From an uncultured Fibrobacteraceae bacterium (GTDB taxonomy: Bacteria > Krumholzibacteriota > Krumholzibacteriia > LZORAL124-64-63), in contig CAZGEC010000001.1 of NCBI GenBank assembly GCA_964524645.1, positions 179,994-243,993 on the forward strand: DNA of 64,000 nt. Direction: 5' to 3'. Position numbers and translations under genes: made by a program. Position 1 is the stretch's first letter. The number at the start of each line of letters is the position of its first letter. The notes under the pieces were generated by a model. It had not been told where the DNA came from. It ran no database searches and saw only the letters and a list, made by a program, of their open reading frames with translations. Of the stretch, positions 5,508 through 43,109 are shown one piece after another.

Positions 5508-5520
5508 GACGTGTGCTCTC

Positions 5521-5607
5521 GTGGCGGAGGGCGGGGGACTCGAACCCCCAAGGGTTTTCACCCGGCGGTTTTCAAGACCGCTGCCTTACCAGTTAGGACT
5601 AGCCCTC
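5521..5607 (-). tRNA. tRNA-Ser (anticodon TGA)
   Basis: Reverse-strand sequence is GGAGGGCTAGTCCTAACTGGTAAGGCAGCGGTCTTGAAAACCGCCGGGTGAAAACCCTTGGGGGTTCGAGTCCCCCGCCCTCCGCCA. It has a long variable arm, anticodon loop CTTGAAA and an encoded CCA. Confidence 0.8.
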
Positions 5608-5708
5608 CGTCCGGATCGGCGCGTCCGCAAGGCCTTGGGCTCTCCGCACATCGGCCTGGCGGCAGGCCGCCGCCACCGGCGGGAGCCGGAGGCGGAATCG
5701 GCACGGTA

Positions 5709-15603: not shown

Positions 15604-16608
15604 GTGCTGTATTCCCAACGCATCACGGGCGGCGATCCTGCGCCTGATCAGATACGGGCCGCCCTCGCTGAACTGGCGGCGGCGCATCCGGATATCATCG
15701 AGTGCCAGGTGCCCTTGCGCGAGCTCACGACCTTTCGCATCGGCGGCCCCGCCCTCGGCCTCGTGCGCGTGCATACTCCGGACGAGGCCCTCAGGTTCCA
15801 GCTCCTGGCCCGGGAGCACGGCCTGCCGCTCGTCGCCCTGGGCGGTGGCAGCAACATCCTGGCGGACGACCGCGGTTTCTGCGGGCTCGTCCTGCGCCTC
15901 GAGCTGGACAGCTTCGCCGTGCGCGGCCATGCCGTCACGGCCGGTGCGGGACTGGCCTTCGATGCTCTCGTGGAGCGCAGCCTGGAAGCGGGGCTCGTGG
16001 GCCTGGAGTTCGCCTCCGGCATCCCCGGCACCGTCGGCGGCGCCGTGGTCGGAAACGCGGGCTGCCACGGCCACGAGATCGGCGAGTTCCTGCGCGAGGC
16101 CGTCGTGTTGCGGCCGGATGGCCGGATCGAGATGGTCACCCCGGCATCCCTGCAGCTGGCCTATCGCAGCTCCGCTCTCAAGTCCAGCGGCGATCTGCTG
16201 TTGGAGGCCACGCTCGAGCTGCGGTCCGGCGACGTCGGGGTTGCCCGGCAGGTCCGCCAGGAGCACCTCGCCCTGCGTCGCCGGAAGCATCCCTGGCGGG
16301 AACCGAGCGCGGGCAGCTACTTCCGCAACCTGCCCCCGGCCTCACCGGAGGGGCGGCGGCAGGCCGCCGGCGAGCTCCTCGACAGGGCCGGGGTCAAGGG
16401 GATGCGCGTGGGCGGGGCCGCGGTCTACGAGCGGCACGCCAACATCATCATCAACACGGGGGGTGCCACCTGCGCCGACGTGCTGGCCCTGGCGGCGCGC
16501 ATGAAGGCCGCGGTCCGCGAGCGGTTCGGTGTCGAGCTGCAGGAGGAGGTCCGCCACCTGCCCTGGCGCTCTGCCGGCGACCCGGATCGGCCGCCCTTCC
16601 TCACTTGA
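15604..16608 (+). CDS. murB: UDP-N-acetylenolpyruvoylglucosamine reductase
   Basis: GTG start with GGGGAGG upstream. FAD-binding and MurB C-terminal motifs are present (GGGSNIL, SGIPGTVGGAVVGNAG, SAGSYFRNLP). Confidence 0.9.
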   Translation: MLYSQRITGGDPAPDQIRAALAELAAAHPDIIECQVPLRELTTFRIGGPALGLVRVHTPDEALRFQLLAREHGLPLVALGGGSNILADDRGFCGLVLRLELDSFAVRGHAVTAGAGLAFDALVERSLEAGLVGLEFASGIPGTVGGAVVGNAGCHGHEIGEFLREAVVLRPDGRIEMVTPASLQLAYRSSALKSSGDLLLEATLELRSGDVGVARQVRQEHLALRRRKHPWREPSAGSYFRNLPPASPEGRRQAAGELLDRAGVKGMRVGGAAVYERHANIIINTGGATCADVLALAARMKAAVRERFGVELQEEVRHLPWRSAGDPDRPPFLT

Positions 16609-19489
16609 GGAGCGTCACCTTGCGGCTGGCTGTCCGGCCCTCTACCGTGACGCTCACCAGGTAGGTCCCGGCGGCCGCGACGCCGTCACGGGCCCGGCCA
16701 TCCCACTCCAGATCGTGGTCGCCTGCGGAATACCAGCGACGCCCCAGATCCGCCACCTTGCGTCCGGCCAGATCCCAGACCGCCGCTTCCACCCAGGCGG
16801 GTCGCTCCAGGGAGAGGCTCATCCGGACGCGGGGGTTGAAGGGATTGGGGCGGGGCTCGTCCAGGCGGAAGCCCCGTGAGGGCTCGACATCCGGCCCTGC
16901 GGAACACCCTCCCGCCAGGGAGGTCAGGGCCAGCACCCCCCCATCTCCGGCCCGCAGCCGGAAGGCGATGCGGCCGTCGGCGCCCGCGGCCAGCCGCGAC
17001 GACGCCACCGCGGAGGCCGGCAGCTCGAGGACGCCCGTCTCGCCTGCCGCGCGCCAGGCTCCGCTCACGGCGACGCCGTCCTGCACGAGAACGCTCCAGC
17101 CCCCGGCCGTTTCCCCTTCCAGCCACCAGCCGCGCCCGGGTGGCAGATCGCAGGTCACGCGTATCGCGCCGTCGACGCAGGCGGCTGCGAGCGGGGCCGG
17201 CACGCTCGGCACGGGATTGGGCTCGATGTTCAGCATGGTCAGGGCCAGCTCGAGGGTGCGGTCCAGCGTGATCATGTCCAGGGTTCCGTCGCGATCCAGA
17301 TCTGCCGTGAGGATACGAGAAGGTTCCAGCGCCGAGCTGAAGGGCACCAAGGGGGAGAGAAACCAGTTAGGACCGGTGATGATGAGCCCGACGCTGTGGT
17401 TCGCCGGGAAGGTGATCAGAACGTCCGCAACCCCGTTCACGTCGATGTCGGCCGTCGTGATCGTGCCGGGTTGCATGTCCAGAACGCGATCATCCACCCT
17501 CAGCTGCATGGTCCCATCGCCCAGGTTTTCCAGATAGGCGAGGGTTCCCTGCTGCTCCTTCTGCACGACCAGGTCCAGGTCGCCGTCGGAATCGAAGTCC
17601 CCCGTTGCCAGGCTGGTGGGCGCGTTGCCCAGATTGTAGAAGCGGACGAGTCCGAACTCGCGACCACCCAGGTTGGCCAGCGTGGTCAGCCGTCCGGTGC
17701 CGTTGCTGACGACGATCTCGGGCAGGCCGTCGTGGCTGAGGTCCATGGCCACGACGTCGGAAACGGCGTCCACCAGGGGCAGGGTCTCGACCTGGGCAAA
17801 CGTGCCGTCGCCGGCCCCGTAGGCCAGGGTGATGTCGTCCGAGCCCTCGTTACCCACCACCAGGTCCTCGATGCCGTCCAGGTCCATGTCGACGGCCTGC
17901 AGGGCAAAGGGCCCGTTACCGGTCGTGAACTCGCTCAGGGGGGTGTATCCCCCGCCGGGCAGCCGCCGCAGGACGCGCACCCGGCGGACGCTCGGTTGAA
18001 CCACGGCCAGATCGCGCAGGGTATCGCCGTCGGCCAGAATCATGGCCAGGGCGCGCGGCTCGGCCGTGAGCGGCACCGGCACCGCGTCGCGCGTGAGATG
18101 GCCGGTGCCGTCGGAGCGCAGGATCTCCACCGTCGGGCTCCCCAGGCAAGCCACCAGCAGGTCCTCGTCTCCGTCCAGGTCCTCGTCGTACGTCAGCCCC
18201 TCGATGGGATTCGGGGGCAGCAGGGTGGCCAGGTATGCCCGGTAGCTGGGACCGTCGTTGCCGAAGAGCAGGGCCACGCTGCGGGACGTGCCGTTGGCGA
18301 CCAGGAGATCCAGGTACTGGTCGCCGTTCAGGCGGCATGACGCGACATCCTCGGCGTGGCCCCCGGTGTAGAAGGTCTCCAGGAGGCTCCAGTCGCCGGC
18401 CTGCCACCGGAAGTAATCCAGCACGCCGCGCTCCCTGCTCCAGCACCAGATGCCCCGGGTGCCGCCGGACATCTCGGCGGCGATCAGACCGTCGGCCTGA
18501 AAGCCGGTTCCGAGCCGGCCGGCCTCGACCAGGCCACCGGCCTGGGGTTCGAACAGGCTCACGTAGGCCGAGTCCGCATAGGTGACCAGCAGCTCCGTCA
18601 CCAGATCGCCGTCTTCGTCGAAGGGCACGCAGCACAGGGGATTGCCGTCGCAAACCGTCTGTGCGGTCAGCGAGTAGCGCCCGCCCGCGTCCCGCCGGAA
18701 GATGGAGAGATCCTCGGAAAGGTAGCCGCTGTCGGACGTGACGACCTCCGGGATCTGATCACCGTCCAGGTCGATGGCCGCCAGCGAGCTGGGATGATCG
18801 CCGCTGTCCACCTCCTGGGTGACCTCCCAGCCTGCTTCCGTCGGCTCCAGGAGCAACCAGCGATCGAAACCGGGCAGGGTCACGGCCAGGGCGATCGCCC
18901 CGTCCTGACCCAGGGGAGCGGCGAGGATGGCGCCGGGATCCTCGTCGAACTCCACGTGGGCCACCATCTCGAAGACCTCTGCACCACCTCGATACCGCAA
19001 GAGCACGACTTGGTCCGGATTGGCCGTCGCCACACCGAGCAGCTCCGCGTGGGTGCCGGGATCGGTGAAGACCTCCAGATCCACGATCGAGCCGCTGATC
19101 TGGAAGAACTCCGTGGGCCGGAATAGGCCGCCCCCGACATGCTCCACCTTGGCGAGAACTCCATCGCTGCGTCCGGCGATCGCCTCCATGATGCCGTCGC
19201 CGTCCACGTCGAAACAGACGATGGAATTCACGGGCTGCTGCAGGAAGACATTGATCTGGCCCGGGAAGTAGAGCCCCACGGCGGCGGCCGCGGCCAGGGG
19301 CGTCAGGAGGAGGCCTCCCACGAGCAGCCGGCAGAACCCCGAGAGCGAGCGGCGCCGGACCGCCCCCCCCGGCGGTGAAGCCGCCCTGCTGCCCGGCCGA
19401 CGATCGCCCGGGGGAGCCTCGAGGGAGAAGGGATGCTGTTGCGCGGACATGGATCCGGTGGCCCTTCGCCGGGGTGGGATACTCGCCAT
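16601..19489 (-). CDS. FG-GAP/VCBS repeat beta-propeller protein with C-terminal FlgD-Ig/T9SS-type sorting domain
   Basis: At least 9 FG-GAP-like DxDGDG repeats (FDVDGDGIMEA, DLDGDQIPEV, DEDGDLVTEL, DFDSDGDLDLVV ...). The last ~83 aa (RPNPFNPRVRMSLSL...EWDGRARDGVAAAGTYLVSVTVEGRTASRKVTLLK) form the CTD. Start is uncertain (19489 or 19450). Confidence 0.75.
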   Translation of the reverse strand: MASIPPRRRATGSMSAQQHPFSLEAPPGDRRPGSRAASPPGGAVRRRSLSGFCRLLVGGLLLTPLAAAAAVGLYFPGQINVFLQQPVNSIVCFDVDGDGIMEAIAGRSDGVLAKVEHVGGGLFRPTEFFQISGSIVDLEVFTDPGTHAELLGVATANPDQVVLLRYRGGAEVFEMVAHVEFDEDPGAILAAPLGQDGAIALAVTLPGFDRWLLLEPTEAGWEVTQEVDSGDHPSSLAAIDLDGDQIPEVVTSDSGYLSEDLSIFRRDAGGRYSLTAQTVCDGNPLCCVPFDEDGDLVTELLVTYADSAYVSLFEPQAGGLVEAGRLGTGFQADGLIAAEMSGGTRGIWCWSRERGVLDYFRWQAGDWSLLETFYTGGHAEDVASCRLNGDQYLDLLVANGTSRSVALLFGNDGPSYRAYLATLLPPNPIEGLTYDEDLDGDEDLLVACLGSPTVEILRSDGTGHLTRDAVPVPLTAEPRALAMILADGDTLRDLAVVQPSVRRVRVLRRLPGGGYTPLSEFTTGNGPFALQAVDMDLDGIEDLVVGNEGSDDITLAYGAGDGTFAQVETLPLVDAVSDVVAMDLSHDGLPEIVVSNGTGRLTTLANLGGREFGLVRFYNLGNAPTSLATGDFDSDGDLDLVVQKEQQGTLAYLENLGDGTMQLRVDDRVLDMQPGTITTADIDVNGVADVLITFPANHSVGLIITGPNWFLSPLVPFSSALEPSRILTADLDRDGTLDMITLDRTLELALTMLNIEPNPVPSVPAPLAAACVDGAIRVTCDLPPGRGWWLEGETAGGWSVLVQDGVAVSGAWRAAGETGVLELPASAVASSRLAAGADGRIAFRLRAGDGGVLALTSLAGGCSAGPDVEPSRGFRLDEPRPNPFNPRVRMSLSLERPAWVEAAVWDLAGRKVADLGRRWYSAGDHDLEWDGRARDGVAAAGTYLVSVTVEGRTASRKVTLLK

Positions 19490-19724
19490 CAGAATACGGG
19501 TCCAGGGACCTACTCCTCAAGCATGCACCTTTATGGGTTGACACTGCATCACCTACGCCTGAAATTTAATGATGTTTCGGCCCCGCGCGCCGGGCTGGGG
19601 CGGCAACTGTCGCGACAGGTTCGCGCCGGCGCCCGGCCTCGTGGATTCTCGACCCCTTGCGGAAGCGGCGCCACTCCGACCTCCTCCCCACAACACGGGT
19701 GGCGGAGCCGACAGGAGCAACTCC

Positions 19725-20710: not shown

Positions 20711-22312
20711 TCAGGGACGGGGAACGATCTGGCGGTCTTCTCCGAACCCGGCCAGCGCTTCGAGCCGGTAGCCGAGAGCTTCTCCCAGGTGGGATCTACT
20801 GACCACGCACTGCTCCTCGAGGATCGCGATGGTCCGCGCCACGCGAGCGCAGCGCAGCGTCCCGCGCAGCGAGAGTCCCAGGGAGCGCCGGGCCTCCTCC
20901 AGGAAGGCCACGGCTTCGGCCTCCAGGCCCAGCTCGCGCAGCAGATCGCGGGGATCCGCCTCGCCTCCGGCGGCAACCGGATGCGCCTGCAGCCAGCGTC
21001 GCGAGCGGGTGGCCCGCTCGCAAAGCGGTCGCCAGACGTCACCCCCGGCCCGCGCCTTCGTCCCGGCTTCCCCGTCGCGACGGATCAGCAGGGATTCCCG
21101 CGGCTCGCACATCTCGACGAAGAGGTCGATGCGGTCCAGAAAGGGTCCCGAGAGACGCCCCCGGTACTGGGCCAGCGCCGCCGGGGTGCAGCGACAGGAG
21201 CGGCGGCGACTGCCCAGGAAGCCGCAGCGGCAGGGGTTCATGGCGGCCACGAGCTGGAAGGAGGCGGGAAAGGTGCGCGCGCCGCTCCCCCGTGCCACGA
21301 CGATCCGTCCCTCTTCCAGGGGCTCCCGCAGGACGTCCAGGACGGCCGGCGAGAACTCCCCCAGCTCGTCCAGGAAGAGCAGTCCCAGATGGGCCAGCGT
21401 CACTTCCCCCGGGCGCAAGGCGGCGCCGCCGCCGATCAGGCCCGCCCGGGTGATGGTGTGATGCGGGGCGCGGAAGGGAGGCCGCCTCAGCAGGTCGCCG
21501 CCGCGCAGGCCGCCGACCGCACTGTGGATGCGGCTGACCTCCAGCGACTCGGCGGCGGTCAGCGACGGGAGCAGGCCGGCCACGGCGCGAGCGAGACGGG
21601 TTTTCCCGGCCCCGGGAGGGCCCACCAGGAGCAGGTTGTGACGCCCGGCGGCGGCGATCAGAGCGGCGCGCTGCGCGGCCGGCTGTCCGAGCAGCCCCAG
21701 GAAGGCCGCCGCGCTCGCCGCGGTGCCGGGGAGGGAGGCCGGACGCGCCGGCGGTGAGGCCGGCGGCCCGCCGCCGGCGGTCCGGGGCATGATCCCGCGA
21801 CGCCACCAGGCCACCACCTGCGACAGGTTGTCGGCGCCGATCGCCTCCACGCTCTCCACCAGCCGGGCTTCCCAGGCCTGGCAGGCCGGGACCACCACCA
21901 GGCGCTCGCCGCGGCGTGCCGCATCCAAAACGATGGCCAGCAGCCCGCGCACGGGGCGCAGCTCGCCGAACAGGCTGAGCTCGCCGAGCAGCAGGGCTCG
22001 CTGCCGGACCGGCGGCACCGCGGCGGCGGCCTCGTCCTGGGCCGCGATCACCCCCAGGGCGATCGCCAGGTCGAAGGCGGCCCCTTCCTTGCGCACATCG
22101 GCCGGTGCCAGGTTGACGGTGATGCGGCCGAGGGGAAAGCCGAAGCCGCTGTTGCGGATGGCCGAGAGCACGCGCTCCCGGCTCTCGCGCACCGCAGCGC
22201 TGGGCAGGCCGACAATGTGGAAGGCGGGCAGACCGCGCCCGACGTCGACCTCCACCCCCACCGTGTAGCCCTCGATGCCGTCCACGGCGCCGCTGCGAAA
22301 CCTCGTGGGCAT
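20711..22312 (-). CDS. YifB/ComM-family Mg-chelatase-like AAA+ ATPase
   Basis: Start M51 of the track ORF (GGAGG upstream). N-terminal Lon-like/ChlI-type domain, Walker A GPPGAGKT and a C-terminal Mg-chelatase subunit-like region. Confidence 0.85.
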   Translation of the reverse strand: MPTRFRSGAVDGIEGYTVGVEVDVGRGLPAFHIVGLPSAAVRESRERVLSAIRNSGFGFPLGRITVNLAPADVRKEGAAFDLAIALGVIAAQDEAAAAVPPVRQRALLLGELSLFGELRPVRGLLAIVLDAARRGERLVVVPACQAWEARLVESVEAIGADNLSQVVAWWRRGIMPRTAGGGPPASPPARPASLPGTAASAAAFLGLLGQPAAQRAALIAAAGRHNLLLVGPPGAGKTRLARAVAGLLPSLTAAESLEVSRIHSAVGGLRGGDLLRRPPFRAPHHTITRAGLIGGGAALRPGEVTLAHLGLLFLDELGEFSPAVLDVLREPLEEGRIVVARGSGARTFPASFQLVAAMNPCRCGFLGSRRRSCRCTPAALAQYRGRLSGPFLDRIDLFVEMCEPRESLLIRRDGEAGTKARAGGDVWRPLCERATRSRRWLQAHPVAAGGEADPRDLLRELGLEAEAVAFLEEARRSLGLSLRGTLRCARVARTIAILEEQCVVSRSHLGEALGYRLEALAGFGEDRQIVPRP

Positions 22313-22599
22313 GCCCCTGCCTGCTCCTCCCGCCCGCTGGTCGCGCGGGCGGCTAGCAAGCGGCGAGCCGCAGGATGCCCCCGTTCCGTCTTCCCGGCGT
22401 TTGGCGCCCGGCAGCCGCAGAGCGGCGCCCCGCGGGGTCGCGGACACGCGGCCCCGGGTCACGCCGGTCCCCGGAGGTCGTCGCCGCCGGGGATGCCCGT
22501 CCTCGGAGGTTCACGGATAATGGCGGGAGGGACCGGCGCCGACACGACGAGGGGAGACTCCGCCGCGGAGTCCCCCCTCGCTCTATCCAGGCGCCGGGG

Positions 22600-23307
22600 C
22601 TAGTGGTACAGATCCTTGATCTTGCCCCAAGTCGAGTTCTCGCTGGCCGTCGGGTCGTTCGGCGGCGTCAGCTTGGTCTTGAAGCTGCGGTCGAAGCCGT
22701 CGGGCACCGGCGTGACCGGCGGATTCGGGTCGGAGATGTCCAGCCCGAGGAAGTTCCAGTCGTTCAAGAAGTACTCCGCCAGGCTGAGGTCGCCGACCCG
22801 CGTGCCTCCGATGAAGTCGCAGGTGCCGGCGCCGGAACCGGTGAACACACCAGGCGGCGTGATGCTGCCGTCCATGAGGTTCAGGGTCCAGCCGTCGTCC
22901 ACGCTCGCGAAGAGGATCAGCTCGCCATCCACGAAGGTGCTGACATCCCCGTAATCGGCGGCCGTACCGCCCGCGATGGGGTCGGAGTATATATGGACCA
23001 TTCCGCCGTTGAAGATGGAGCTCATGCGCGGGAACGGCGGCGGGGGGTAGCTGCTCTGCCCGCCGATGGTCATGCCCTCGACATGAACCGTGTACTGGTA
23101 ATTGTCCATGTCGACGGCGATCGGCGTCGGCACACCACCCACCGTGCTCAGAATCCCGTACACGTCCATGGTCGCGCCCAGCTGATCCGGCGCGGGCGTG
23201 TACGTGGCGTACCCGTTGAAGAGGAACTCGCTCCCCGCCAGCGCTTGCGCAGTCATGAGCAAGGCGATGAGCAACGCTGCAGGAGCCAGGACTTTCTTGA
23301 GCTTCAT
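22600..23307 (-). CDS. Secreted protein, paralogue A, ending in the conserved motif STWGKIKDLYH
   Basis: Signal peptide MKLKKVLAPAALLIALLMTAQALA with GGAGGA RBS. Paralogous to the next gene (DNYQYTVHVEG vs DDYQYTIVIS, VPDGFD vs VPDGYD, same C-terminal motif). Confidence 0.6.
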   Translation of the reverse strand: MKLKKVLAPAALLIALLMTAQALAGSEFLFNGYATYTPAPDQLGATMDVYGILSTVGGVPTPIAVDMDNYQYTVHVEGMTIGGQSSYPPPPFPRMSSIFNGGMVHIYSDPIAGGTAADYGDVSTFVDGELILFASVDDGWTLNLMDGSITPPGVFTGSGAGTCDFIGGTRVGDLSLAEYFLNDWNFLGLDISDPNPPVTPVPDGFDRSFKTKLTPPNDPTASENSTWGKIKDLYH

Positions 23308-23340
23308 GACGTGCATCCTCCTATCCATTGTTGCCCGGCA

Positions 23341-24030
23341 CTAGCGGTACAGGTTCTTGACCTGGCCCCAGGATCCCGGCTCGACGGGGATGGTCGGGTT
23401 GAAGGTCACGTGCCCGTCCATCTCGAGATCGTAGCCGTCAGGCACTTGCGCAGCCAGCGGATCGACCGTACCGGAGAAGATGTTCCCCAGCGGATCGAAC
23501 AGCTCGCCAATATCCGGATGGATGGTCCAGTTGATGTAGCCCTCGAAGCTGCCGACGTGCATCGCCGGGTAGTAGATCATGTAGAAGCTGCTGAAGACGC
23601 CGTGGAGGTAGATGGCCCCGTCGGCGAAGGTCAGCGGAGCGGTCGCGTTCGGCGGTTCGAGCCCGAAGTCGGGAGCCGTGTAAGCGAAGTCGTCGTACCG
23701 CTGGGCCACGATGTCCACCGCACCGCCGGTGTAGCTGATGTAGAACATCCCGCCGCCGAAGTCCGTTTCACCCATGGAAACGAGGTCGGAGATGACAATC
23801 GTGTACTGGTAGTCGTCCGGGCTCCAGACCAAGGGCTCGCTCATGCTCTCGATGAAGCCGACGCCCTCCAGCACGTCGCCGACATTGCTCGGAGGATACC
23901 CCACCACGCCGGGGGTGTTGTCCGACTCGTACATGAATCCCGTGAAGTCCAGGATCGTCTGCGGCTGCGCGAACGCGGAGACGGCCACGAGGCACAGCGC
24001 AAACGACCACAGCATGATGACTCGCTTCAT
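23341..24030 (-). CDS. Secreted protein, paralogue B, ending in the conserved motif GSWGQVKNLYR
   Basis: Signal peptide MKRVIMLWSFALCLVAVSAFAQP with GGGAGGG RBS. Tandem paralogue of 22600..23307. Confidence 0.6.
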   Translation of the reverse strand: MKRVIMLWSFALCLVAVSAFAQPQTILDFTGFMYESDNTPGVVGYPPSNVGDVLEGVGFIESMSEPLVWSPDDYQYTIVISDLVSMGETDFGGGMFYISYTGGAVDIVAQRYDDFAYTAPDFGLEPPNATAPLTFADGAIYLHGVFSSFYMIYYPAMHVGSFEGYINWTIHPDIGELFDPLGNIFSGTVDPLAAQVPDGYDLEMDGHVTFNPTIPVEPGSWGQVKNLYR

Positions 24031-24320
24031 CACACCCTCCCGAGTTATCCTGAATGCAAGCAACGCATGATTCGGAATGGACCTTGTATCATTTCCCAGA
24101 AACGTAATCAGTACCTCCTCCATGAGAGGTCACGGGCGAGTCGATAGCACCAAACCAGATCCGTTGAGGAAAGATGACGGACGATTTTTCCCCTCTTTAT
24201 GTCGCAGTATACCACATGCCCCTGCATGTTGCAATCGGGATTTGCGGTCTGGCTTGCACTCCGCCCGGCTTGTCGCGTGCGGAACGATCGAACCGCCGTG
24301 CGGGCTGCCCGGGGGACGTG

Positions 24321-24352
24321 CAAAAGACACGGAAGCCCCCTGAGGGGCTTCC
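24321..24352 (-). terminator. Rho-independent terminator downstream of the histone-fold gene
   Basis: Plus-strand GGAAGCCCC-CTGA-GGGGCTTCC gives a 9-bp GC stem. On the minus-strand transcript it is followed by GUGUCUUUUG. Confidence 0.5.
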
Positions 24353-24428
24353 GCACAATACCCTGTCACGGTCGTCGGCTCCCGCCAAGAGGGCCGGCGG
24401 CCGCCGGAAGCGGATGCGTCCGGGTTAT

Positions 24429-24599
24429 CTACAGATCCTGGGGGCGAACCGTCTTGCGGCCGTTGGCCAGGGCGCGCTGCTCGGCCTTGGCGATCAGCTC
24501 GCGGACCTTCCCATCCAGGGCACCGTAGAACTCGCCCGAAACGTTGCACTTCTTGACGGCTTCCTTCGTCTTGCTCTTGCTGATGATCATGTCGGCCAT
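24429..24599 (-). CDS. Bacterial histone-fold protein (DUF1931 / HBb-like)
   Basis: 56 aa, MADMIISKSKTKEAVKKCNVSGEFYGALDGKVRELIAKAEQRALANGRKTVRPQDL. The C-terminal ...AKAEQRAxANGRKTV..DL matches the histone alpha3 'GRKTI/V' signature of archaeal HMf and bacterial HBb proteins. GGAGGAG RBS 4 nt upstream. A terminator hairpin lies downstream. Confidence 0.7.
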   Translation of the reverse strand: MADMIISKSKTKEAVKKCNVSGEFYGALDGKVRELIAKAEQRALANGRKTVRPQDL

Positions 24600-24861
24600 G
24601 GCTCCTCCAACCGAAGAAGGGTCCAAACCACGAATGCGGGGCCCCATCGTCCCGAAGGCATCCCCCGCTGTCAACCCCCGAAATCGCTCCACGCAAGCTG
24701 TCCTCACGCCGGGAAAGCGCGTCCGGGCGCCCTGGCGCACCCCTTGTCGGGGCTGCGACACAATCGCCTCGACACGGAATGCTGTCAAGACTAGTTTTTG
24801 CGGGTACGGCACCGGCAGCACGCGCACGCCGGCCTTTTCCACTCCCATCAAGGAGGGCGGC

Positions 24862-26229
24862 ATGAGCCGCGACCGGGTCCTCGCCTACCTCGACGCGCAC
24901 CGCGATCGGCACGTGGAACAGCTCTGCGACTGGCTGCGCATCCCCAGCATCAGCGCCCTCACCGCGCGGAAGCGCGACATCGCCAGGGCCGCGGAGTTCG
25001 TGGCCGCCGAGCTGCGTGACCTCGGGCTCGCGGCCGAGTCGATCGACCTGGGCGGCAATCCCCTGATCTACGCCGAATCGGAGATCCGGCTCGACCGCCG
25101 GACGCTGCTCTTCTACGGCCACTACGACGTGCAGCCGGTGGACCCGCTCGACCTGTGGCAGAGTCCCCCCTTCGAGCCGAGGCTCGCGGACGGCGTCCTC
25201 TACGCCCGCGGCGCCAGCGACGACAAGGGGCAGGTCTACGCTCATCTGAAGGCCCTCGAGGCCTACGTGAAGCAGGGCCTGGAGCTGCCCGTCAACGTCA
25301 AGTTCATCATCGAGGGCGAGGAGGAGTGCGGCGGGCACAGCATCTACGAGTACACGGAGAAGAATCCCGAGAGGCTGGCCTGCGATGCCGTGATCATCAG
25401 CGACACCACCCTCTACAACGAGACCACCCCCGGCATCTGCTACAGCCTCAAGGGCATCGCTTTCATGGAGATCCGGGTGAGCGGTCCGGCGGCGGACCTG
25501 CACTCGGGCAGCTACGGCGGGGTGGTCCAGAACCCCGGCAACGCCATCTGCGAGATCGTGGCCGCCCTGAGGGACGCGGATGGTCGCTGCCGGATCCCCG
25601 GTTTCTACGACGACGTCCTGGAGCTGGACGACGCCGAGCGGGCCGCCTTCGCCTCGCTGGGCTACACCGACCAGATCCTGCGGCAGGAGACCGGCGCCCC
25701 GGCCCCCTTCGGCGAGAAGGGCTATACCACTCTCGAGCGTATGTGGGCCCGGCCCACCTGCGACGTCAACGGTCTGGTGAGCGGCTACGGCGGTGAGGGT
25801 GGAAAGACGATCATCCCCGCCACGGCCACGGCCAAGGTGAGCATGCGCCTGGTCCCCGACCAGGTTCCGGAGAAGATCGCCGCCGCCTTCAAGGCCTACG
25901 TCGAGCGGATCGCACCGCCGGGGGTCCGGATCGAGGTGCTCAACCTGCACAAGGCGAACCCGGTGCTGGTCCCCCGAGATTCGGAGATGATGCAGGCCGG
26001 GATGCGCGCCCTCGCGGCGGGCTTCGGGGCCCAACCTGTCTTCATCCGCGAGGGGGGCTCGATCCCCATCGTGGGCACCTTCCAGAGCTGCCTCCGCGCG
26101 CCGGTCCTGCTCCTGGGCTACGGTCTGAGCACCGACAACATCCACTCGCCGAACGAGAAGTTCCATCTGGCCAACTTCTGGAACGGCGCCCGCACGACCG
26201 CGATCCTCCTGGAGGAAGCGGCCAAGTAG
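24862..26229 (+). CDS. M20-family dipeptidase/peptidase (ArgE/DapE/CPG2 superfamily)
   Basis: Start M107 of the track ORF (AGGAGGG 4 nt upstream). Motifs HYDVQP, GASDDKG, EGEEECGG and the dimerisation domain are present. Confidence 0.85.
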   Translation: MSRDRVLAYLDAHRDRHVEQLCDWLRIPSISALTARKRDIARAAEFVAAELRDLGLAAESIDLGGNPLIYAESEIRLDRRTLLFYGHYDVQPVDPLDLWQSPPFEPRLADGVLYARGASDDKGQVYAHLKALEAYVKQGLELPVNVKFIIEGEEECGGHSIYEYTEKNPERLACDAVIISDTTLYNETTPGICYSLKGIAFMEIRVSGPAADLHSGSYGGVVQNPGNAICEIVAALRDADGRCRIPGFYDDVLELDDAERAAFASLGYTDQILRQETGAPAPFGEKGYTTLERMWARPTCDVNGLVSGYGGEGGKTIIPATATAKVSMRLVPDQVPEKIAAAFKAYVERIAPPGVRIEVLNLHKANPVLVPRDSEMMQAGMRALAAGFGAQPVFIREGGSIPIVGTFQSCLRAPVLLLGYGLSTDNIHSPNEKFHLANFWNGARTTAILLEEAAK

Positions 26230-26312: not shown

Positions 26313-26387
26313 GTCCCCATCGTCTAGTGGTCAGGACACCGCCCTTTCACGGCGGCAACACGGGTTCGACTCCCGTTGGGGACGCCA
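26313..26387 (+). tRNA. tRNA-Glu (anticodon TTC)
   Basis: GTCCCCATCGTCTAGTGGTCAGGACACCGCCCTTTCACGGCGGCAACACGGGTTCGACTCCCGTTGGGGACGCCA. Near-identical architecture to proteobacterial tRNA-Glu, with an encoded CCA. Confidence 0.85.
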
Positions 26388-26850: not shown

Positions 26851-27345
26851 GGCATGCCTCCGAGACGGGGCGAGATACGGGCGGGGCGGCGCGTGCCGGA
26901 GTGGAAAGGACCTTCATTCTAGTCCCCGCCGTCCGCTCTGTCCATGGGCCATTGCGGCCGGTCGAGGTGAATCCCCTGCTCGCCTGGGGCGTGGCGGCTT
27001 GCCACAATGGGGCAGAAAGCCCCAGATCCTTATCTTGTAAGTTGTTAATTTACAATATATTACACGTGGCACGCTTTCTGCGAGAAGAGGAGCGGATGGA
27101 ACCAGAGGTCCGGGGCGTGAGGCCCCCGGGCAAGAGGAGTCCGGGCAGCAGGGAGTCGCGGTTATGAGGTCCGGTGAGCTCAGCAGGCGACCGGAGAGAA
27201 GCCGGGTTCCCGCTGCCCGCTTCCCCCAGACTCCTCCGCAAAATAACGAGGCGGGCGGCGGCGAGCACGAGGAGCGCCGCCGTCCCGCTCTTCATCATAG
27301 AGGTGGAGCGCTGGCGGGCCGGGCTGGCTCGAGGAGATGACTGTC

Positions 27346-27693
27346 ATGCAGAAGGTGCTGATCGTCGAGGACGAGCCCAACGTCCGACGCCTGTACGAGA
27401 TGGAACTGAAGCGCGAGGGTTTCCGTGTCGAGTCCGTGGCGAGTGGCGAGCAGTGCCTGGCCTGCCTGGATCAGACGGACCCCGACCTGGTCGTGCTGGA
27501 CGTCCTGATGCCGGGCATGGACGGCATCGAGACCCTCCAGCAGCTGCGAACACGCAAAAGGTCGGTGCGCGTCGTCCTGAATACGGCCTGTACCGCCTGT
27601 TCCAGCAACTACCTGGCGTGGGCTGCGGACGAGTTCCTGATCAAGTCGTCCGACACGAGCGAGCTGATCGAGACCGTCAAGCGCCTGGCCTGA
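27346..27693 (+). CDS. Single-domain response regulator (CheY-like receiver)
   Basis: MQKVLIVEDEPNVRRLYE...DLVVLDVLMPGMDG...VVLNTA. Conserved DD/D/T/K receiver residues and no output domain. Start at 27346 is preferred (GAGGAG 9 nt upstream). Confidence 0.8.
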   Translation: MQKVLIVEDEPNVRRLYEMELKREGFRVESVASGEQCLACLDQTDPDLVVLDVLMPGMDGIETLQQLRTRKRSVRVVLNTACTACSSNYLAWAADEFLIKSSDTSELIETVKRLA

Positions 27694-27740: not shown

Positions 27741-30182
27741 TCAATCGGGGGCTCCCGGTGTTCCCTTGCTTCCGGCGGGCTTGGTGAAGGCCTTGACCCG
27801 CTCGGCCAGCTCCCGCAAGCGCTCCTGCACCGCCCGGTTGACGGTGCCCTCGGGCCAGGTGCCGTCGGGCCGCCGTTCCCCGGCTTCTCGGCCGGTCAGA
27901 AGCGCGATGCCCTCGTCGATGGTCTCCACGGAATGGATGTGGAACTTCCCCTGCTTCGCCGCCTCCACGACGTCCTCGCGCAGCATCAGGTGCGGCACGT
28001 TGCTCCGGGGGATGAGCACGCCCTGCCGGCCGGTCAGCCCCCGCGCGCGACAGACGTCGAAGAAACCCTCGATCTTCTCGTTGACGCCACCGATGGCCTG
28101 AACCTGCCCGTGCTGGTTCACCGAGCCGGTGACGGCCAGATCCTGGCGGATCGGCAGGTCCGCCAGGCTGGACAGCAGGGCATACAGCTCGGTGGAGGAC
28201 GCGCTGTCGCCCTCGACCTCCTCGTATAGCTGCTCGAAGGTCAGGCTGGCCGACAGGGCCAGCGGATGCTCCTCCGCGTACTTGCCGCCCAGGTAGCCGG
28301 CCAGGATCAGGGCCCCCTTGTTGTGGATGGGCCCGCCCAGCTCGGTCTCGCGGTCGATGCTCACCACCCCGGCATGCCCGACATGGGTGCGCGCGGTCAC
28401 GCGGGACGGCTTGCCGAAGCTGTAATCGCCCAGGCCGAGCACGGCCAGGCCGTTGACCTGGCCGACGTGTTCCCCCTCGCAGGCGATGAGCAGGGTGCCC
28501 TCGGTGATCAGCTCCTGCAGCCGCTGCTCGATGCGGTTGCTGCGGTAGATCTTCTCCTCGACGGCCTGGGCGACGTCCGCATCCTGCACCAGGTCGTGAC
28601 CGTTCTTGCCGGCCCAGTAGCTGGCCTGGCGGATCAGATCGGCGATGTCCCCGAACTGCGTCGCCAGCTTGCGCTGGTGGGCCGCCATCCGTGCGCTGTG
28701 CTCGATCATCTTGCGCACGCCCGCGGCGTCGAAGTGCCGCAGGTCCTCCTCGCGGCAGATGGAGCCGATGAAGCGGGCGTACTGCTGCAGGGCCTCCTCG
28801 GAGCGATCCATCTGCAGGTCGAAGTCCGCCTTGACCTTGAACAGTTCGTGGAAATCGGGGTCGCGCTGGTAGAGCAGGTAGTAGACCATCGGATCGCCGA
28901 CCACGATGACCTTGATGTCCAGCGGGATCGGTTCGGGATCGAGCGTGCGGGTGGTGATGTAGCCGTAGGCCTCGCCCATGCTCTCGATCTTGATCTCCTT
29001 GTTCCGCAGGGCGCGCTTGAGGGCGTCCCAGGCCAGCGGGCGGGTCAGGATGTCGAAGGCGTTGACCATCAGGAAACCACCGTTGGCCCGGTGCAGGGCG
29101 CCGCACTTGATCATGTGAAAGTTGGTGACCAGGGTCCCGAAGCGTCCCATGTGCTCGATGCGCCCCACCAGGTTGGGGTGGGTGGGATTGGTCTCCTGCA
29201 CCACCGGTGCGCCGCGCATCTCCTGGCAGTCCACCAGCAGGTTGACCCTGTACTGCTCGAAGCTGGGCTCCTGGCCCGCCTGGAACATGGCCGACGCCAG
29301 CTGCTGCTTGTCCGAGAGCTGTTCCATCTCCTTCAGGCGCTTGAAGGCCGGCACGTTTTCCAGCAGATCGCGGCGGGCGTTGTCCAGGTACTCGCCGACG
29401 GCGGGTAGTTCCTCGTAGCGTTCCTTCAGGTCGTCGATGAGATGGTTGATAGCGAAGCCGATGACCTGCCGGTCCAGCGCCTCGGCGCGCTCCTTGCCTT
29501 CCTTCTGCAGCTGCTGCACCCGGCGCATGGTGTCGCGTAGCTCCCCCTGCATGTGCTCCTGGCGCCGTTCGATGTCCTTCTGCTCCTGCTCCGACAGGTC
29601 GCTCATCTGGTCCGGGGTGACGATGTCGCCGCCCTTGATGGGGGCGATGATCAAGCCCTGGGGCGTCTGGAGCAACCGCACGCCGGTTTCATCGGCCTTC
29701 TTCTCCAGCTCCTCGAACATCTCCCTGCGGCGGCGCTGCAGTTCGCTCTCGATGCGCTCCTGCTCCTGGGTGTACTGCTTGCCCTCGAAGGCCTGCGGCA
29801 CCTCCTTGCGCAGCTCCTCCACCAGACGGTTCATGTCGTCGCGGAAGCGGCGCCCCTGGCCGGCGGGCAGGCACAGGGCCCGCGGCTTGTCCGGATCCTC
29901 GAAGTTGTTGACGTAGAGCCAATCGTCGGGGACCGGCTGGTCGGCGGCCTTGCGCTCGAGGAACTTGCGGATGATGGAGGCCTTGCCGGTTCCCGCGGGA
30001 CCGAGGGCGAACATGTGATAGCCCGGGCTCTCCATGTCCATCCCGAACTCCACCGCTCGCATGGCTCGCGCCTGGCCGATCACGTCTTCCAGCGGGGCAA
30101 GGTCGGCGGTGCTGGCGAAATCGAAGCAATCGGGCGAACAGAGCAGTCTCATGCGCTCGGGGGATACTTCCTCGCTGGCCAT
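27741..30182 (-). CDS. Lon-like ATP-dependent protease (AAA+ ATPase fused to Lon S16 proteolytic domain; LonC/YcbZ-like)
   Basis: 813 aa. Walker A GPAGTGKAS near the N-terminus, a long coiled/alpha region, and a C-terminal Lon protease domain (...TGSVNQHGQVQAIGGVNEKIEGFFDVCRARGLTGRQGVLIP, catalytic Ser-Lys pattern). GGAGGAG RBS upstream. Confidence 0.8.
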   Translation of the reverse strand: MASEEVSPERMRLLCSPDCFDFASTADLAPLEDVIGQARAMRAVEFGMDMESPGYHMFALGPAGTGKASIIRKFLERKAADQPVPDDWLYVNNFEDPDKPRALCLPAGQGRRFRDDMNRLVEELRKEVPQAFEGKQYTQEQERIESELQRRRREMFEELEKKADETGVRLLQTPQGLIIAPIKGGDIVTPDQMSDLSEQEQKDIERRQEHMQGELRDTMRRVQQLQKEGKERAEALDRQVIGFAINHLIDDLKERYEELPAVGEYLDNARRDLLENVPAFKRLKEMEQLSDKQQLASAMFQAGQEPSFEQYRVNLLVDCQEMRGAPVVQETNPTHPNLVGRIEHMGRFGTLVTNFHMIKCGALHRANGGFLMVNAFDILTRPLAWDALKRALRNKEIKIESMGEAYGYITTRTLDPEPIPLDIKVIVVGDPMVYYLLYQRDPDFHELFKVKADFDLQMDRSEEALQQYARFIGSICREEDLRHFDAAGVRKMIEHSARMAAHQRKLATQFGDIADLIRQASYWAGKNGHDLVQDADVAQAVEEKIYRSNRIEQRLQELITEGTLLIACEGEHVGQVNGLAVLGLGDYSFGKPSRVTARTHVGHAGVVSIDRETELGGPIHNKGALILAGYLGGKYAEEHPLALSASLTFEQLYEEVEGDSASSTELYALLSSLADLPIRQDLAVTGSVNQHGQVQAIGGVNEKIEGFFDVCRARGLTGRQGVLIPRSNVPHLMLREDVVEAAKQGKFHIHSVETIDEGIALLTGREAGERRPDGTWPEGTVNRAVQERLRELAERVKAFTKPAGSKGTPGAPD

Positions 30183-41700: not shown

Positions 41701-41775
41701 GGTCCAGGTCAGGCTCAAGCCCAGCAGCAAGAGCAGGACTGCGGCGCCGCGGCGTCCGCTGGCTGCGGATCTCAT
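38752..41775 (-). CDS. Large TPR-repeat protein (about 20+ TPR units), secreted
   Basis: 1007 aa with a signal peptide (AAVLLLLLGLSLTWTGPVLA), then tandem 34-aa TPR units (A..Y.LG.CYF..G.Y..A...Y). 4-nt overlap with the upstream PorV-like gene. Confidence 0.8.
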   Translation of the reverse strand: MRSAASGRRGAAVLLLLLGLSLTWTGPVLAKDSEVPTEDALWQAAGAAYAAGVDKSAAMQQYRLFVQTYHKSNRAARAQYMLGECYFAVGDYKAALQEYDRVEKYKGRDDYLAASVLLRRGECHFNLGDFDAAIASYDRLVDKYDDTFLLAEALYESGLTYIVQGNWLKLRAAYRELLESRPGYKELPQVKFALGLFAYQEQRYEDATAYFEEVPSDRGLYYLGRCYEDTGKYILAIQRYKQVLRQYPDSPLADDVAFSIAEAFYRSGQNAVAVRSYRSFIDDFPESPFVPNARYKMACVTYSEGRFDESIRQLEEICKSFAGDMVCAYAQYLIGDCYMQLERTAEAIFAYTEVVHGFGESHVASAALHKICYAYVSEGNYGQAVLMAQEFLKRFPGDPLAARVHVLKGFSHYKLGEYNEAVMAYQNVLDKNVNTDVAERALFLSTLAYTEQGQLDRVITNYNYIASRLLPTPSYWRARTYYYLGEAYYAQGLYQQAGDMYRLVLTGYPRSNVAAPALQGLVASLSRCGDYELALAEQQKFLLALGNADSEEGNNALAVGSIHFNQHNYQEALQQFTGFLEKHPNSPEAPAALQNLGACYYRLQYYEQALQTWSDLLARFPQSAEAAEALYRIADTQFGLARFAEARTSYRRLQSSYPQGAHVADAAFGIASCAYNLGEDEAAIAAFSSFAETYPDDERVEDAELGIQSCYYRSGKDMTQYLDRHPDSALAADVYWNKGQEAFAAGDYTTAAKAFEKVTLDYPDSESGPGALFYLAESYYRQEELEPALAGYRNFTTTHPENDLAELAHFRAATVLFKLERFTESAAAYEAMMDLFPEGEYAALAAYNAAICYQELEDWTAAVGGYERFLAQYPNHENAKGLWQQVGALYQEELGDYPHAVDAYEKALAQDGTNPAEIRFRQGECWEKAGDLEQALASYRKADAGSAVDPFRIASLAQIGQILEKRGDWAGAITAYQKIVDAHGKPEWTEMAQGRIAALREMEVAGG

Positions 41776-43100: not shown

Positions 43101-43109
43101 GCTGTTCCC

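What the first reader, a model, noticed from the sequence alone, without database searches (positions are those of the whole stretch)
24429..24599. Bacterial histone-fold protein (DUF1931/HBb-like singlet histone) with its own strong RBS and terminator
The 56-aa product aligns convincingly with archaeal HMf histones and the recently characterised bacterial histones. This includes the diagnostic 'RxxANGRKTV..DL' alpha3/loop-2 signature, and the Lys-rich N-terminal segment ISKSKTKEAVKK parallels Bdellovibrio HBb.

Bacterial histones are rare and only recently shown to be major nucleoid proteins in a few lineages. A GGAGGAG RBS and a tight GC hairpin terminator suggest high, monocistronic expression.
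Basis: partly seen in the sequence, partly recalled or inferred. Interest (0 to 1): 0.6.

Follow-up and report, generated by a model that had tools for sequence, protein, structure and literature searches.

The report
Small bacterial histone, face-to-face type
This 56-residue gene really does encode a histone-fold DNA-packaging protein. It belongs to a family already described in bacteria and archaea, so it is a sound but not new kind of finding, seen here in a little-studied bacterial lineage.

Summary
The ORF at 24429-24599 (minus strand) is a real, conserved gene of 56 aa (6.2 kDa, pI 9.7). About 226 close homologues are almost all exactly 56 aa, and 503 GTDB species genomes encode a relative, many of them Krumholzibacteriota MAGs.

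The AlphaFold2 model (pLDDT 90) matches solved alpha3-truncated prokaryotic histones at TM about 0.9: HTkC, HBb and HLp.

"HBb-like/DUF1931" is imprecise.
- The protein carries the full face-to-face (FtF) signature R42-x3-N46-x-R48-x-T50-x4-D55. R42 and N46 are the tetramer contacts that HBb-type "bacterial dimer" histones lack.
- It ends one residue after D55.
- A family profile scores the two FtF structures above HBb.
- It is 50-55% identical over its full length to haloarchaeal FtF histones.
- It is below threshold for Pfam DUF1931 and CBFD_NFYB_HMF.

The most likely function is an abundant, sequence-nonspecific nucleoid protein that forms a tetramer and wraps roughly 60 bp, as HLp does. 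This is inferred, not shown.

The gene is a monocistronic unit with a conserved Shine-Dalgarno site and a conserved intrinsic terminator. It also has a histone-specific promoter-like block (TTGACA-17 bp-GATTGT) conserved in 66 of 79 related loci.

Verdict: new member of a known kind, moderate interest.

The parts
24429..24599 (-). Histone gene: 56 codons plus TAG stop. Predicted alpha1 is residues 8-14, alpha2 22-45, and a truncated alpha3 53-55.
   Evidence: Translation. 226 homologues, nearly all 56 aa. AF2 model pLDDT 90. Foldseek top hits are HTkC, HBb and HLp at TM about 0.9. Single copy in the window.
24602..24608 (-). Shine-Dalgarno site GGAGGAG, 2 nt upstream of the ATG.
   Evidence: Sequence. 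GGAGGA/GGGAGGA lies 5-7 nt before the same start in nearly all of 80 related loci.
24646..24674 (-). Proximal promoter-like site: TTGACA (24669-24674), 17-bp spacer, GACGAT (24646-24651), about 75 nt upstream of the ATG. Inferred, not tested.
   Evidence: The same architecture, TTGAC[AG]-N16-18-nAnnnT at -74 to -108, occurs in 22 of 74 sequences including the closest relative L007. It is not reported by the consensus scanner, which needs at least 4 of 6 matches in the -10 hexamer.
24760..24800 (-). Distal promoter-like block. A-rich stretch CAAAAACTAGTC (24789-24800), TTGACA (24783-24788), exactly 17-bp spacer, GATTGT (24760-24765). It contains the conserved 16-mer TGTCGAGGCGATTGTG (24759-24774). 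It implies a 5' UTR of roughly 150 nt. Inferred, not tested.
   Evidence: The 16-mer (<=2 mismatches) is in 66 of 79 related loci, always 60-260 nt upstream of the histone, in the same orientation, and nowhere else in 788 kb. It is unique in the window. The spacer is 17 bp in 67 of 67 cases. The -35 is TTGACA in 49 and TTGACG in 18. The -10 is GATTGT in 57. Upstream A+T is 48% against 35% overall. Alignment.
24318..24355 (-). Intrinsic terminator: 12-bp G+C-rich stem (counting 2 G-U pairs), 4-nt loop (24328-24355), then UCUUUUG.
   Evidence: RNA fold. Hairpin-plus-T-tail scan: window and 64 of 71 related loci, with stems of different sequence at a similar distance from the stop. A separate promoter-like site for the next gene lies downstream at 24206-24234.

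Best explanation

Proposed mechanism
1. Two chains form the classical histone-fold handshake dimer through the long alpha2 helix.
2. Two dimers associate face to face into a closed, torus-shaped tetramer. The contacts are R42, N46 and R48 at the end of alpha2 and in loop 2, plus the C-terminal carboxylate of L56.
3. The R48-D55 clamp shapes loop 2.
4. DNA is bound without sequence preference through the alpha1 serine/lysine ladder (K8, S9, K10, K12, K16), the L1-L2 bridge (V20-G22 with K49/T50) and the positive rim of the tetramer.
5. By analogy with HLp of Leptospira, about 60 bp wraps around the tetramer.

The gene is its own transcription unit: one or two sigma-70-type promoters, a strong Shine-Dalgarno site and an intrinsic terminator. 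This fits an abundant nucleoid-associated protein that is inherited vertically in a Krumholzibacteriota-like lineage.

Shown here: the gene is real and conserved, the predicted fold, the signature residues, and the conserved expression signals.

Inferred: tetramer formation, DNA wrapping, abundance, and the nucleoid role.
For: Fold
- AF2 pLDDT 90 with helices at 8-14, 22-45 and 53-55.
- The best nine PDB matches are all alpha3-truncated histones: HTkC TM 0.91 at 43-45% identity, HLp TM 0.90 at 38%, HBb TM 0.86-0.90 at 32-34%.

Sequence
- phmmer gives HTkC E 6.6e-8.
- The family profile gives HTkC 67.5 bits, HLp 57.3, HBb 49.9, HMfA 18.
- 82 haloarchaeal plasmid records hold full-length matches; the ten listed are 52-55% identical. 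They include H. volcanii pHV4, whose 55-aa product has K11, R41, N45, R47, T49 and D54 at the same numbers as the FtF archetype D4GZE0.
- 50% identity to P0204, which has the same numbering.

Signature
- R42, N46, R48, T50 and D55 are invariant in 35 close relatives.
- They are present in 147-152 of 153 domains from representatives that share <=50% identity. 114 of 137 domains that reach the profile end finish exactly one residue after the Asp.
- PMC11390915 states that R48 and N52 of the FtF profile make the dimer-dimer contacts and that bacterial dimers lack them.
- PMC12701072 shows the equivalent HLp residues R49, N53 and R55 in the crystal tetramer interface, and that HLp wraps about 60 bp.
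- HLp DNA-contact positions map to K8, S9, K10, K12, K16, V20, G22, K49 and T50 here (alignment read).
- pI 9.7, net charge +4.5.

Expression unit and inheritance
- Conserved SD, terminator and promoter block.
- Synteny with the divergent M20 peptidase in 64 of 80 loci and a downstream YifB/ComM-like ATPase in 62 of 80.
- No phage match. Housekeeping neighbourhood.
Against: - No oligomer model could be made. The tetramer therefore rests on signature residues and homology.
- By a single-sequence search HBb (21.9 bits) scores slightly above HLp (18.3 bits).
- The protein keeps the RKT lysine. The source paper describes this as typical of bacterial dimers and nucleosomal histones and as not strongly conserved in the FtF profile.
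- HTkC, a crystallographic FtF tetramer, has Glu rather than Asn at the N46 position, so that residue is not strictly required.
- No expression, proteome or DNA-binding data exist for this lineage.
- Whether HU or other nucleoid proteins coexist in the genome is unknown. None was found in the window or flanks, which says little.
Confidence: 0.7

Rival explanations
1. One reading: an HBb-type "bacterial dimer" histone. It stays a dimer and bends DNA, or coats it end-on, rather than forming a tetramer that wraps DNA.
For: - Same fold and length class as HBb, TM 0.86-0.90.
- Full-length alignment to HBb with a shared MAE..SK.K start and the GRKTV..D motif.
- The RKT lysine is described as a bacterial-dimer feature.
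- In the single-sequence search HBb scores a little above HLp.
Against: - HBb has Ser and Asp where this family has the near-invariant R42 and N46. The source paper uses exactly that absence to separate dimers from FtF histones.
- The profile ranks both FtF structures above HBb.
- Identity to HBb is only 32-34%, against 43-55% to archaeal FtF histones.
- This family ends one residue after the clamp Asp. The 64-residue HBb chain continues for several residues past the aligned region, which ends at residue 59.
Confidence: 0.2
2. A histone-fold protein that does not organise DNA. Examples would be the DUF1931 pseudodimers (Aq_328, Thermus), which lack DNA-binding residues, or a subunit of a protein complex.
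For: NCBI names relatives "DUF1931 domain-containing protein". The best Pfam match, although below threshold, is DUF1931. Hocher et al. note that non-DNA roles of histone folds are possible.
Against: - It is a singlet, not a doublet, and is below the DUF1931 gathering score.
- It retains the RKT/RD-clamp and the alpha1 lysines at the positions that contact DNA in HLp.
- It is basic, pI 9.7.
- Its nearest solved relatives HBb and HLp have DNA-bound structures in the PDB, and HTkC is reported to compact DNA (paper title).
Confidence: 0.07
3. A chance ORF in G+C-rich DNA, or the C-terminal part of the longer 144-aa ORF that starts at 24863.
For: The window is 68% G+C and full of long spurious ORFs on all frames. 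The ORF listing reports the 144-aa reading.
Against: - Hundreds of homologues of exactly 56 aa with a conserved MAD/MAE start.
- Unconserved upstream extensions.
- A conserved SD directly before the internal ATG.
- A conserved non-coding promoter block inside the supposed extension.
- A confident fold.
Confidence: 0.01

Closest known systems
Haloarchaeal FtF histones (H. volcanii D4GZE0/HVO_0196 and its plasmid paralogues, e.g. pHV4 WP_004043415.1)
   Same: Collinear over the full length, 55 against 56 aa, 50-55% identity. Same short L1 loop (xNVSxxFY). Same R-x3-N-x-R-x-T-x4-D-L-COOH ending. No tail.
   Different: The haloarchaeal proteins are acidic, and those matched here sit on megaplasmids. 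The window protein is basic (pI 9.7), chromosomal, bacterial, has Cys at position 18, and has K8, K10 and K16 in alpha1.
HTkC, FtF histone of Thermococcus kodakarensis (PDB 9F2C)
   Same: Best solved-structure match by sequence (E 6.6e-8; profile 67.5 bits) and by fold (TM 0.91, rmsd 1.0 A, 43-45% identity). It has a truncated alpha3 and is a crystallographic torus-shaped tetramer.
   Different: HTkC has a 4-residue longer L1 loop and Glu at the N46 position. It coexists with nucleosomal histones in an archaeon.
HLp, tetrameric bacterial FtF histone of Leptospira perolatii (PDB 9QT0-9QT2)
   Same: R49/N53/R55 in HLp correspond to R42/N46/R48 here. Both share TVRPxD, the alpha1 S-K motif and the fold (TM 0.90). 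HLp is the experimental model for wrapping about 60 bp.
   Different: HLp has a short N-terminal extension and a 2-residue longer L1, RTT instead of RKT, and 38% identity. The gene neighbourhoods differ: SMC/MAP/DUF350 in Leptospira against M20 peptidase and YifB/ComM here.
HBb/Bd0055, bacterial dimer histone of Bdellovibrio bacteriovorus (PDB 8FVX, 8CMP, 9EZZ)
   Same: Same alpha3-truncated fold (TM 0.86-0.90), GRKTV..D motif and Lys-rich alpha1. An abundant nucleoid protein.
   Different: HBb lacks the R and N tetramer contacts (Ser and Asp instead), has a C-terminal extension past the aligned region, a 3-residue longer L1, and 32-34% identity. It is a dimer that bends DNA.
DUF1931 pseudodimeric histones (Aquifex Aq_328, PDB 1R4V; Thermus, PDB 1WWI) and Pfam PF09123
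   Same: Histone fold. It is the database label given to relatives of the window protein.
   Different: Those are doublets lacking DNA-binding signature residues. The window protein is a singlet, keeps those residues, and scores below the Pfam cut-off.
Archaeal nucleosomal histones HMfA/HMfB
   Same: The RxTxxxxD (RD clamp) motif in loop 2 and the overall fold.
   Different: Only a marginal sequence match (E 0.024-0.3, residues 24-56) and TM 0.46-0.49. HMf has a 10-residue alpha3 and a longer alpha2, and tetramerises on DNA into continuous helices (hypernucleosomes).

Membership tests
Histone-fold superfamily | Helix-loop-long helix-loop-helix fold that matches solved histones. | tested here: met
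   AF2 model pLDDT 90, helices at 8-14, 22-45 and 53-55. Below the top nine matches (all alpha3-truncated histones), nearly all of the listed PDB matches are histone-fold proteins.
alpha3-truncated prokaryotic histones (Schwab et al. 2024) | alpha3 of only 3-4 residues, and alpha2 4-5 residues shorter than in nucleosomal histones. | tested here: met
   The model has a 3-residue alpha3 (53-55) and a 24-residue alpha2. The protein ends at residue 56. Definition quoted.
alpha3-truncated prokaryotic histones (Schwab et al. 2024) | RxTxxxxD motif (RD clamp plus loop-2 Thr). | tested here: met
   R48, T50 and D55 are invariant in A1 and present in 149-152 of 153 representative domains.
Face-to-face (FtF) histones | Confidently predicted or observed torus-shaped homotetramer. 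This is the feature that defines the class. | not testable with these tools
   The structure tool predicts single natural chains only.
Face-to-face (FtF) histones | Conserved dimer-dimer contact residues R48 and N52 of the FtF profile (R41/N45 in D4GZE0; R49/N53 in HLp). | tested here: met
   R42 and N46 sit at the same spacing from R48/T50/D55. They are invariant in close relatives and present in 147 and 148 of 153 representative domains. Definitions.
Face-to-face (FtF) histones | Closer in sequence to FtF exemplars than to other histone classes. | tested here: met
   Profile scores: HTkC 67.5, HLp 57.3, HBb 49.9 bits. 50-55% identity to haloarchaeal FtF histones. Caveat: in the single-sequence search HLp (18.3 bits) scores below HBb (21.9 bits).
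Bacterial dimer histones (HBb/Bd0055 type) | Absence of the FtF contact residues R48 and N52. The class is defined by sequence clustering with HBb. | tested here: not met
   The window protein has both residues, whereas HBb has Ser and Asp. Identity to HBb is 32-34%. No CLANS-type clustering against the published set was done.
Bacterial dimer histones (HBb/Bd0055 type) | RKTxxxD motif and alpha1 lysines. | tested here: met
   R48-K49-T50...D55, with K8, K10 and K12. These are also present in HTkC, so they do not discriminate.
Pfam DUF1931 (PF09123) | Score at or above the gathering threshold; pseudodimeric doublet architecture. | tested here: not met
   17.2 bits against 21.8, matching profile positions 23-53 of 138 only. 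The protein is a singlet.
Pfam CBFD_NFYB_HMF (PF00808) | Score at or above the gathering threshold. | tested here: not met
   14.4 bits against 21.4.
Archaeal nucleosomal (HMf-type) histones | Full-length alpha3 (about 10 residues) and a longer alpha2. | tested here: not met
   alpha3 is 3 residues. HMfA matches only residues 24-56 at E 0.024 and TM 0.46-0.49.
Major nucleoid-associated protein (functional class) | High cellular abundance and nucleoid localisation. | not testable with these tools
   Only indirect evidence: a conserved strong SD, promoter-like blocks and a terminator.

The most novel reading that the evidence does not exclude
An FtF-type histone, vertically inherited with fixed synteny and its own highly conserved promoter, is the principal chromatin protein of the whole candidate phylum Krumholzibacteriota and neighbouring uncultured lineages. 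That would make it a third bacterial lineage, after Bdellovibrionota and Leptospirales, with histone-based nucleoids. Its closest characterised relatives are archaeal (haloarchaeal and Thermococcus FtF histones), which points to an old archaea-bacteria transfer. The conserved spacer of the promoter would be an operator that tunes histone dosage.
Probability: 0.3. Interest if true: 0.6.

Novelty: new member of a known kind. Interest (0 to 1): 0.38.

Why it matters
Histones occur in under 2% of bacterial genomes (Hocher et al. 2023). Only two bacterial histones in the PDB search used here have solved structures, HBb and HLp, and only HLp is of the wrapping, tetrameric kind.

This gene adds a well-conserved, tail-less, minimal (56 aa) FtF-type histone. 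It is found in hundreds of uncultured species, with stable synteny and a dedicated conserved promoter. No paper in the searched library mentions histones together with this phylum. Pfam-threshold surveys would miss it.

It would be a compact candidate for biochemical study of tetramer wrapping, and for asking how archaeal-type chromatin proteins spread and persist in bacteria.

It does not change the current picture. The family, fold and likely mechanism are already described.

Tried and rejected
- **Tetramer model.** I built an alignment of four linker-joined copies to force a tetramer out of the single-chain AF2 tool.
- **5' hairpin.** A conserved hairpin at the 5' end of the leader looked plausible by eye. 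Its folding energy is no better than shuffles (mean z -0.53) and no better than a control window further downstream (z -0.74). Dropped.
- **Known RNA in the leader.** Rfam finds only four tRNAs in the window and nothing in the leader.
- **Mobile element or phage histone.** No phage match. The plasmid matches are all haloarchaeal replicons, not bacterial. The neighbours are housekeeping genes.
- **Redox or disulfide role for the invariant Cys18.** In the wider family this position is L, M, F, Y or I in most members, so it is probably a hydrophobic core position. Not pursued.
- **HU in the same genome.** This is uninformative for the whole genome.
- **Prior listing in the literature.**
  - Schwab 2024 supplements have no hit for Krumholzibacteriota, Latescibacterota, Eisenbacteria or Gemmatimonadota.
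  - Hocher 2023 Supplementary Table 1 contains two or three Planctomycetes MAG proteins of this subfamily (CNVSGDFY) but none with the CNVSGEFY form. That file was truncated when stored.
- **Longer 144-aa ORF and overlapping antisense ORFs.** Rejected as G+C-rich artefacts.

Full report
**1. What is in the sequence**

On the minus strand, 24599 to 24429 encodes MADMIISKSKTKEAVKKCNVSGEFYGALDGKVRELIAKAEQRALANGRKTVRPQDL. That is 56 aa plus a TAG stop, 6.2 kDa, pI 9.7, net charge about +4.5.

GGAGGAG lies 2 nt upstream of the ATG, at 24602-24608.

About 75 nt after the stop there is a 12-bp G+C-rich hairpin at 24328-24355, followed by UCUUUUG. The built-in terminator scanner missed it, probably because G-U pairs extend the stem into the T-run (my reading).

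The window is 68% G+C and carries many long spurious ORFs, among them a 144-aa reading of this frame from 24863.

**2. Is it a real gene?**

Yes.
- A search of 5.8 billion proteins returned 226 homologues with E <= 1e-3. The 120 listed score E 2e-25 to 4e-19 at 77-95% identity, and almost all are exactly 56 aa. NCBI names them [quoted passage not shown] and JGI names them "histone H3/H4".
- In the few longer gene calls the N-terminal extensions are unrelated to each other. Conservation begins at MAD/MAE.
- A profile search of 1.84 billion cluster representatives found 868 clusters at E <= 1e-3 and 142 at E <= 1e-10.
- A scan of one genome per GTDB species confirmed 503 encoding stretches. Of the best 80, 28 are labelled Krumholzibacteriota/-ia, 16 are "uncultured Fibrobacteraceae" TPA bins, 25 are unnamed bacteria, and 11 are Planctomycetota, Gemmatimonadota, Latescibacterota, Eisenbacteria, Acidobacteriota, Methylomirabilis or Verrucomicrobiota bins.
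- The identical protein is on 19 metagenome contigs.
- There is one copy in the window and one in each related locus.

**3. Fold**

AlphaFold2 with a 43-sequence alignment gives mean pLDDT 90.2. Helices are at 8-14 (alpha1), 22-45 (alpha2) and 53-55, a three-residue alpha3.

Foldseek against the PDB puts nine alpha3-truncated prokaryotic histone chains first:

| Structure | TM | rmsd | Identity |
|---|---|---|---|
| HTkC (9F2C) | 0.91 | 1.0 A | 43-45% |
| HBb (9EZZ, 8FVX, 9F0E, 8CMP) | 0.86-0.90 | about 1 A | 32-34% |
| HLp (9QT0, 9QT1) | 0.90-0.91 | about 1 A | 38% |

Eukaryotic and archaeal histone folds follow at TM 0.45-0.63.

Sequence alone already finds these structures: HTkC E 6.6e-8, HBb E 0.002, HLp E 0.024.

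Pfam is below threshold for every histone model: DUF1931 17.2 bits against 21.8, and CBFD_NFYB_HMF 14.4 against 21.4. Surveys that rely on Pfam gathering cut-offs would therefore miss this protein.

**4. Which kind of prokaryotic histone?**

Schwab et al. [quoted passage not shown]
- FtF histones are defined by a torus-shaped tetramer.
- Their most conserved residues are profile positions R48, N52, R54, T56 and D61, which are R41, N45, R47, T49 and D54 in H. volcanii D4GZE0.
- R and N make the dimer-dimer contacts. [quoted passage not shown]
- Bacterial dimers lack R48 and N52.
- Hu et al. (PMC12701072) see the same residues (R49, N53, R55) in the crystal tetramer interface of HLp, and show that HLp wraps about 60 bp.

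The window protein has R42, N46, R48, T50 and D55 at identical spacing, and it ends at L56, one residue after the Asp.
- These residues are invariant in 35 close relatives.
- Among 153 domains from representatives sharing <=50% identity, R42 occurs in 147, N46 in 148, R48 in 152, T50 in 150 and D55 in 149. In 114 of 137 domains that reach the profile end, the chain stops exactly there. Most of the rest are first halves of tandem doublets.
- HBb has Ser and Asp at the R and N positions, and its 64-residue chain continues past the aligned region, which ends at residue 59.

Other lines of evidence agree.
- A family profile scores HTkC 67.5 bits, HLp 57.3 and HBb 49.9.
- tblastn against plasmids finds 82 haloarchaeal replicons with full-length matches; the ten listed are 52-55% identical. 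One is H. volcanii pHV4, whose 55-aa product MTDLIVKSAVKDALEGSNVSADFYEALDAEVEELLEDAARRTEANDRKTVQPRDL carries K11, R41, N45, R47, T49 and D54 at the published numbers. Schwab et al. state that halobacterial plasmids carry extra FtF histones.

I therefore file the protein as FtF-type rather than HBb-like.

Three caveats remain.
- The tetramer itself could not be modelled.
- The RKT lysine is described as more typical of dimers and nucleosomal histones.
- HTkC has Glu at the Asn position.

**5. Likely mechanism**

Mapping the HLp DNA contacts listed onto the alignment gives:

| HLp element | HLp residues | Window residues |
|---|---|---|
| Paired ends of helices | A13, S14, K15 | K8, S9, K10 |
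| alpha1 | K17, K21 | K12, K16 |
| L1 | T27, G29 | V20, G22 |
| L2 | T56, T57 | K49, T50 |

The S-K motif that Hocher et al. call diagnostic of bacterial singlets is present twice (SKSK).

The most probable function is therefore as follows. Handshake dimers pair face to face into a tetramer. The tetramer has a positive rim that binds DNA without sequence preference and wraps roughly 60 bp, acting as a nucleoid-associated protein.

Shown: the gene, conservation, predicted fold, residues and expression signals. Inferred: tetramer, wrapping, abundance.

**6. The expression unit and its surroundings**

Shine-Dalgarno site and terminator. A GGAGGA-type site precedes the same start in nearly all related loci. 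An intrinsic terminator follows in 64 of 71 loci, with stems that differ in sequence.

Distal promoter-like block. The 262-bp intergenic region up to the divergent M20/M25/M40 peptidase gene (24862-26229, +) holds a strikingly conserved block: A-rich stretch, TTGACA (24783-24788), 17 bp, GATTGT (24760-24765).
- Its 16-mer TGTCGAGGCGATTGTG occurs with <=2 mismatches in 66 of 79 related loci. It is always 60-260 nt upstream of the histone in the same orientation, and nowhere else in 788 kb of flanks or in the window.
- The spacer is exactly 17 bp in 67 of 67 cases.
- This non-coding block is better conserved than the flanking proteins (M20 64-77% identity, YifB/ComM 49-63%).
- It reads as a sigma-70-type promoter giving a 5' UTR of about 150 nt. 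Why half of the spacer is conserved is unexplained.

Proximal promoter-like site. A second TTGACA-17-GACGAT lies at 24646-24674 and is shared with 21 other loci.

Neighbours.
- Downstream, the histone is usually followed directly by a YifB/ComM-type Mg-chelatase-like AAA+ ATPase (20711-22462 here; 62 of 80 loci).
- In the window and 12 relatives, two Pfam-less secreted-looking paralogues are inserted between them.
- The wider window holds MurB, ExbB/TonB, AsmA, an S1-domain protein, a cysteine-desulfurase-like gene, a LonC-like protease and tRNAs. This is an ordinary chromosomal setting.
- No phage relatives were found.

**7. Comparison with the literature and novelty**

The family is known.
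- Hocher et al. 2023 list subfamily members from Planctomycetes MAGs in their Supplementary Table 1, for example MSDLIISKSRTKAAATSCNVSGDFYGALDHYVRRAIAQAESRAAANGRKTLRPADL.
- Schwab et al. 2024 describe the class. Hu et al. 2025 give the mechanism for a bacterial member.

What appears to be new:
- The lineage. No paper in the searched library pairs Krumholzibacteriota with histones. There is no mention in the Schwab supplements, and no CNVSGEFY sequence in the truncated Hocher table.
- Evidence for persistent vertical inheritance with fixed synteny.
- The dedicated conserved promoter.
- The observation that the nearest characterised relatives are archaeal FtF histones rather than HLp or HBb.

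This is a new member of a known kind.

**8. Verdict**

- Observation: confirmed.
- Interpretation: partly supported. It is a histone, but FtF-type, not HBb/DUF1931.
- Interest: moderate (0.38).
- Confidence that it is an alpha3-truncated histone-fold protein: above 0.95.
- Confidence that it works as an FtF tetramer wrapping DNA as a nucleoid protein: about 0.7.

Noticed in passing
window 24759-24800 (minus strand); related loci L007-L086, 60-260 nt upstream of the histone start: A histone-specific non-coding block: A-rich stretch, TTGACA, exactly 17 bp, GATTGT, including the 16-mer TGTCGAGGCGATTGTG. It is conserved in 66 of 79 loci and found nowhere else in 788 kb. It is better conserved than the neighbouring proteins. 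The conservation of the spacer half is unexplained; it may be an operator.
   Followed up: yes
window 23341-24123 (-) and 22600-23328 (-): Two paralogous Pfam-less genes (260 and 242 aa) with signal-peptide-like N-termini. Both end in W-G-x-[VI]-K-x-L-Y-[RH] immediately before the stop. They are inserted between the histone and the YifB/ComM-like gene in the window and in only 12 of 80 relatives. The C-terminal motif occurs nowhere else in the window.
   Followed up: partly
window 20711-22462 (-); related loci: A YifB/ComM-type Mg-chelatase-like AAA+ ATPase lies downstream of the histone in 62 of 80 loci, directly adjacent in many. This could be a functional link (ComM acts on DNA) or plain phylogenetic inertia. 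It was not resolved.
   Followed up: partly
proteins P0131, P0145, P0166, P0176, P0189, P0250 (representative search): Natural tandem doublets (118-126 aa) of the same FtF-like domain. Some have Cys/His-containing linkers (DVPHYYCCG, DVPHCFSCKG). They may be covalent pseudodimers with a metal- or redox-sensitive linker.
   Followed up: no
proteins P0125, P0128; Hocher 2023 Supplementary Table 1: Close relatives carry Lys/Ala-rich N-terminal tails (MAPKKKTKKKATRKAANKK...) fused to the same core; the Planctomycetes MAG sequences are in the Hocher table. The window protein has no tail.
   Followed up: no
window 26313-26387 (+); 5326-5608 (-): tRNA-Glu(UUC) lies directly after the M20 peptidase gene. 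A tRNA-Arg(ACG), tRNA-Ser(GCU), tRNA-Ser(UGA) cluster lies elsewhere in the window.
   Followed up: no
window 43113-50069 (-): A very large ORF (2319 aa stop to stop, GC3 0.90) that was not examined. Several other large proteins in the window end in FlgD_ig-like domains (16604-19516, 41775-43109, 50336-52996).
   Followed up: no
window 27741-30182 (-): A LonC-like (catalytically atypical Lon) AAA+ protease with LonB-like AAA and LonC helical domains, next to a stand-alone response regulator (27337-27693, +).
   Followed up: no
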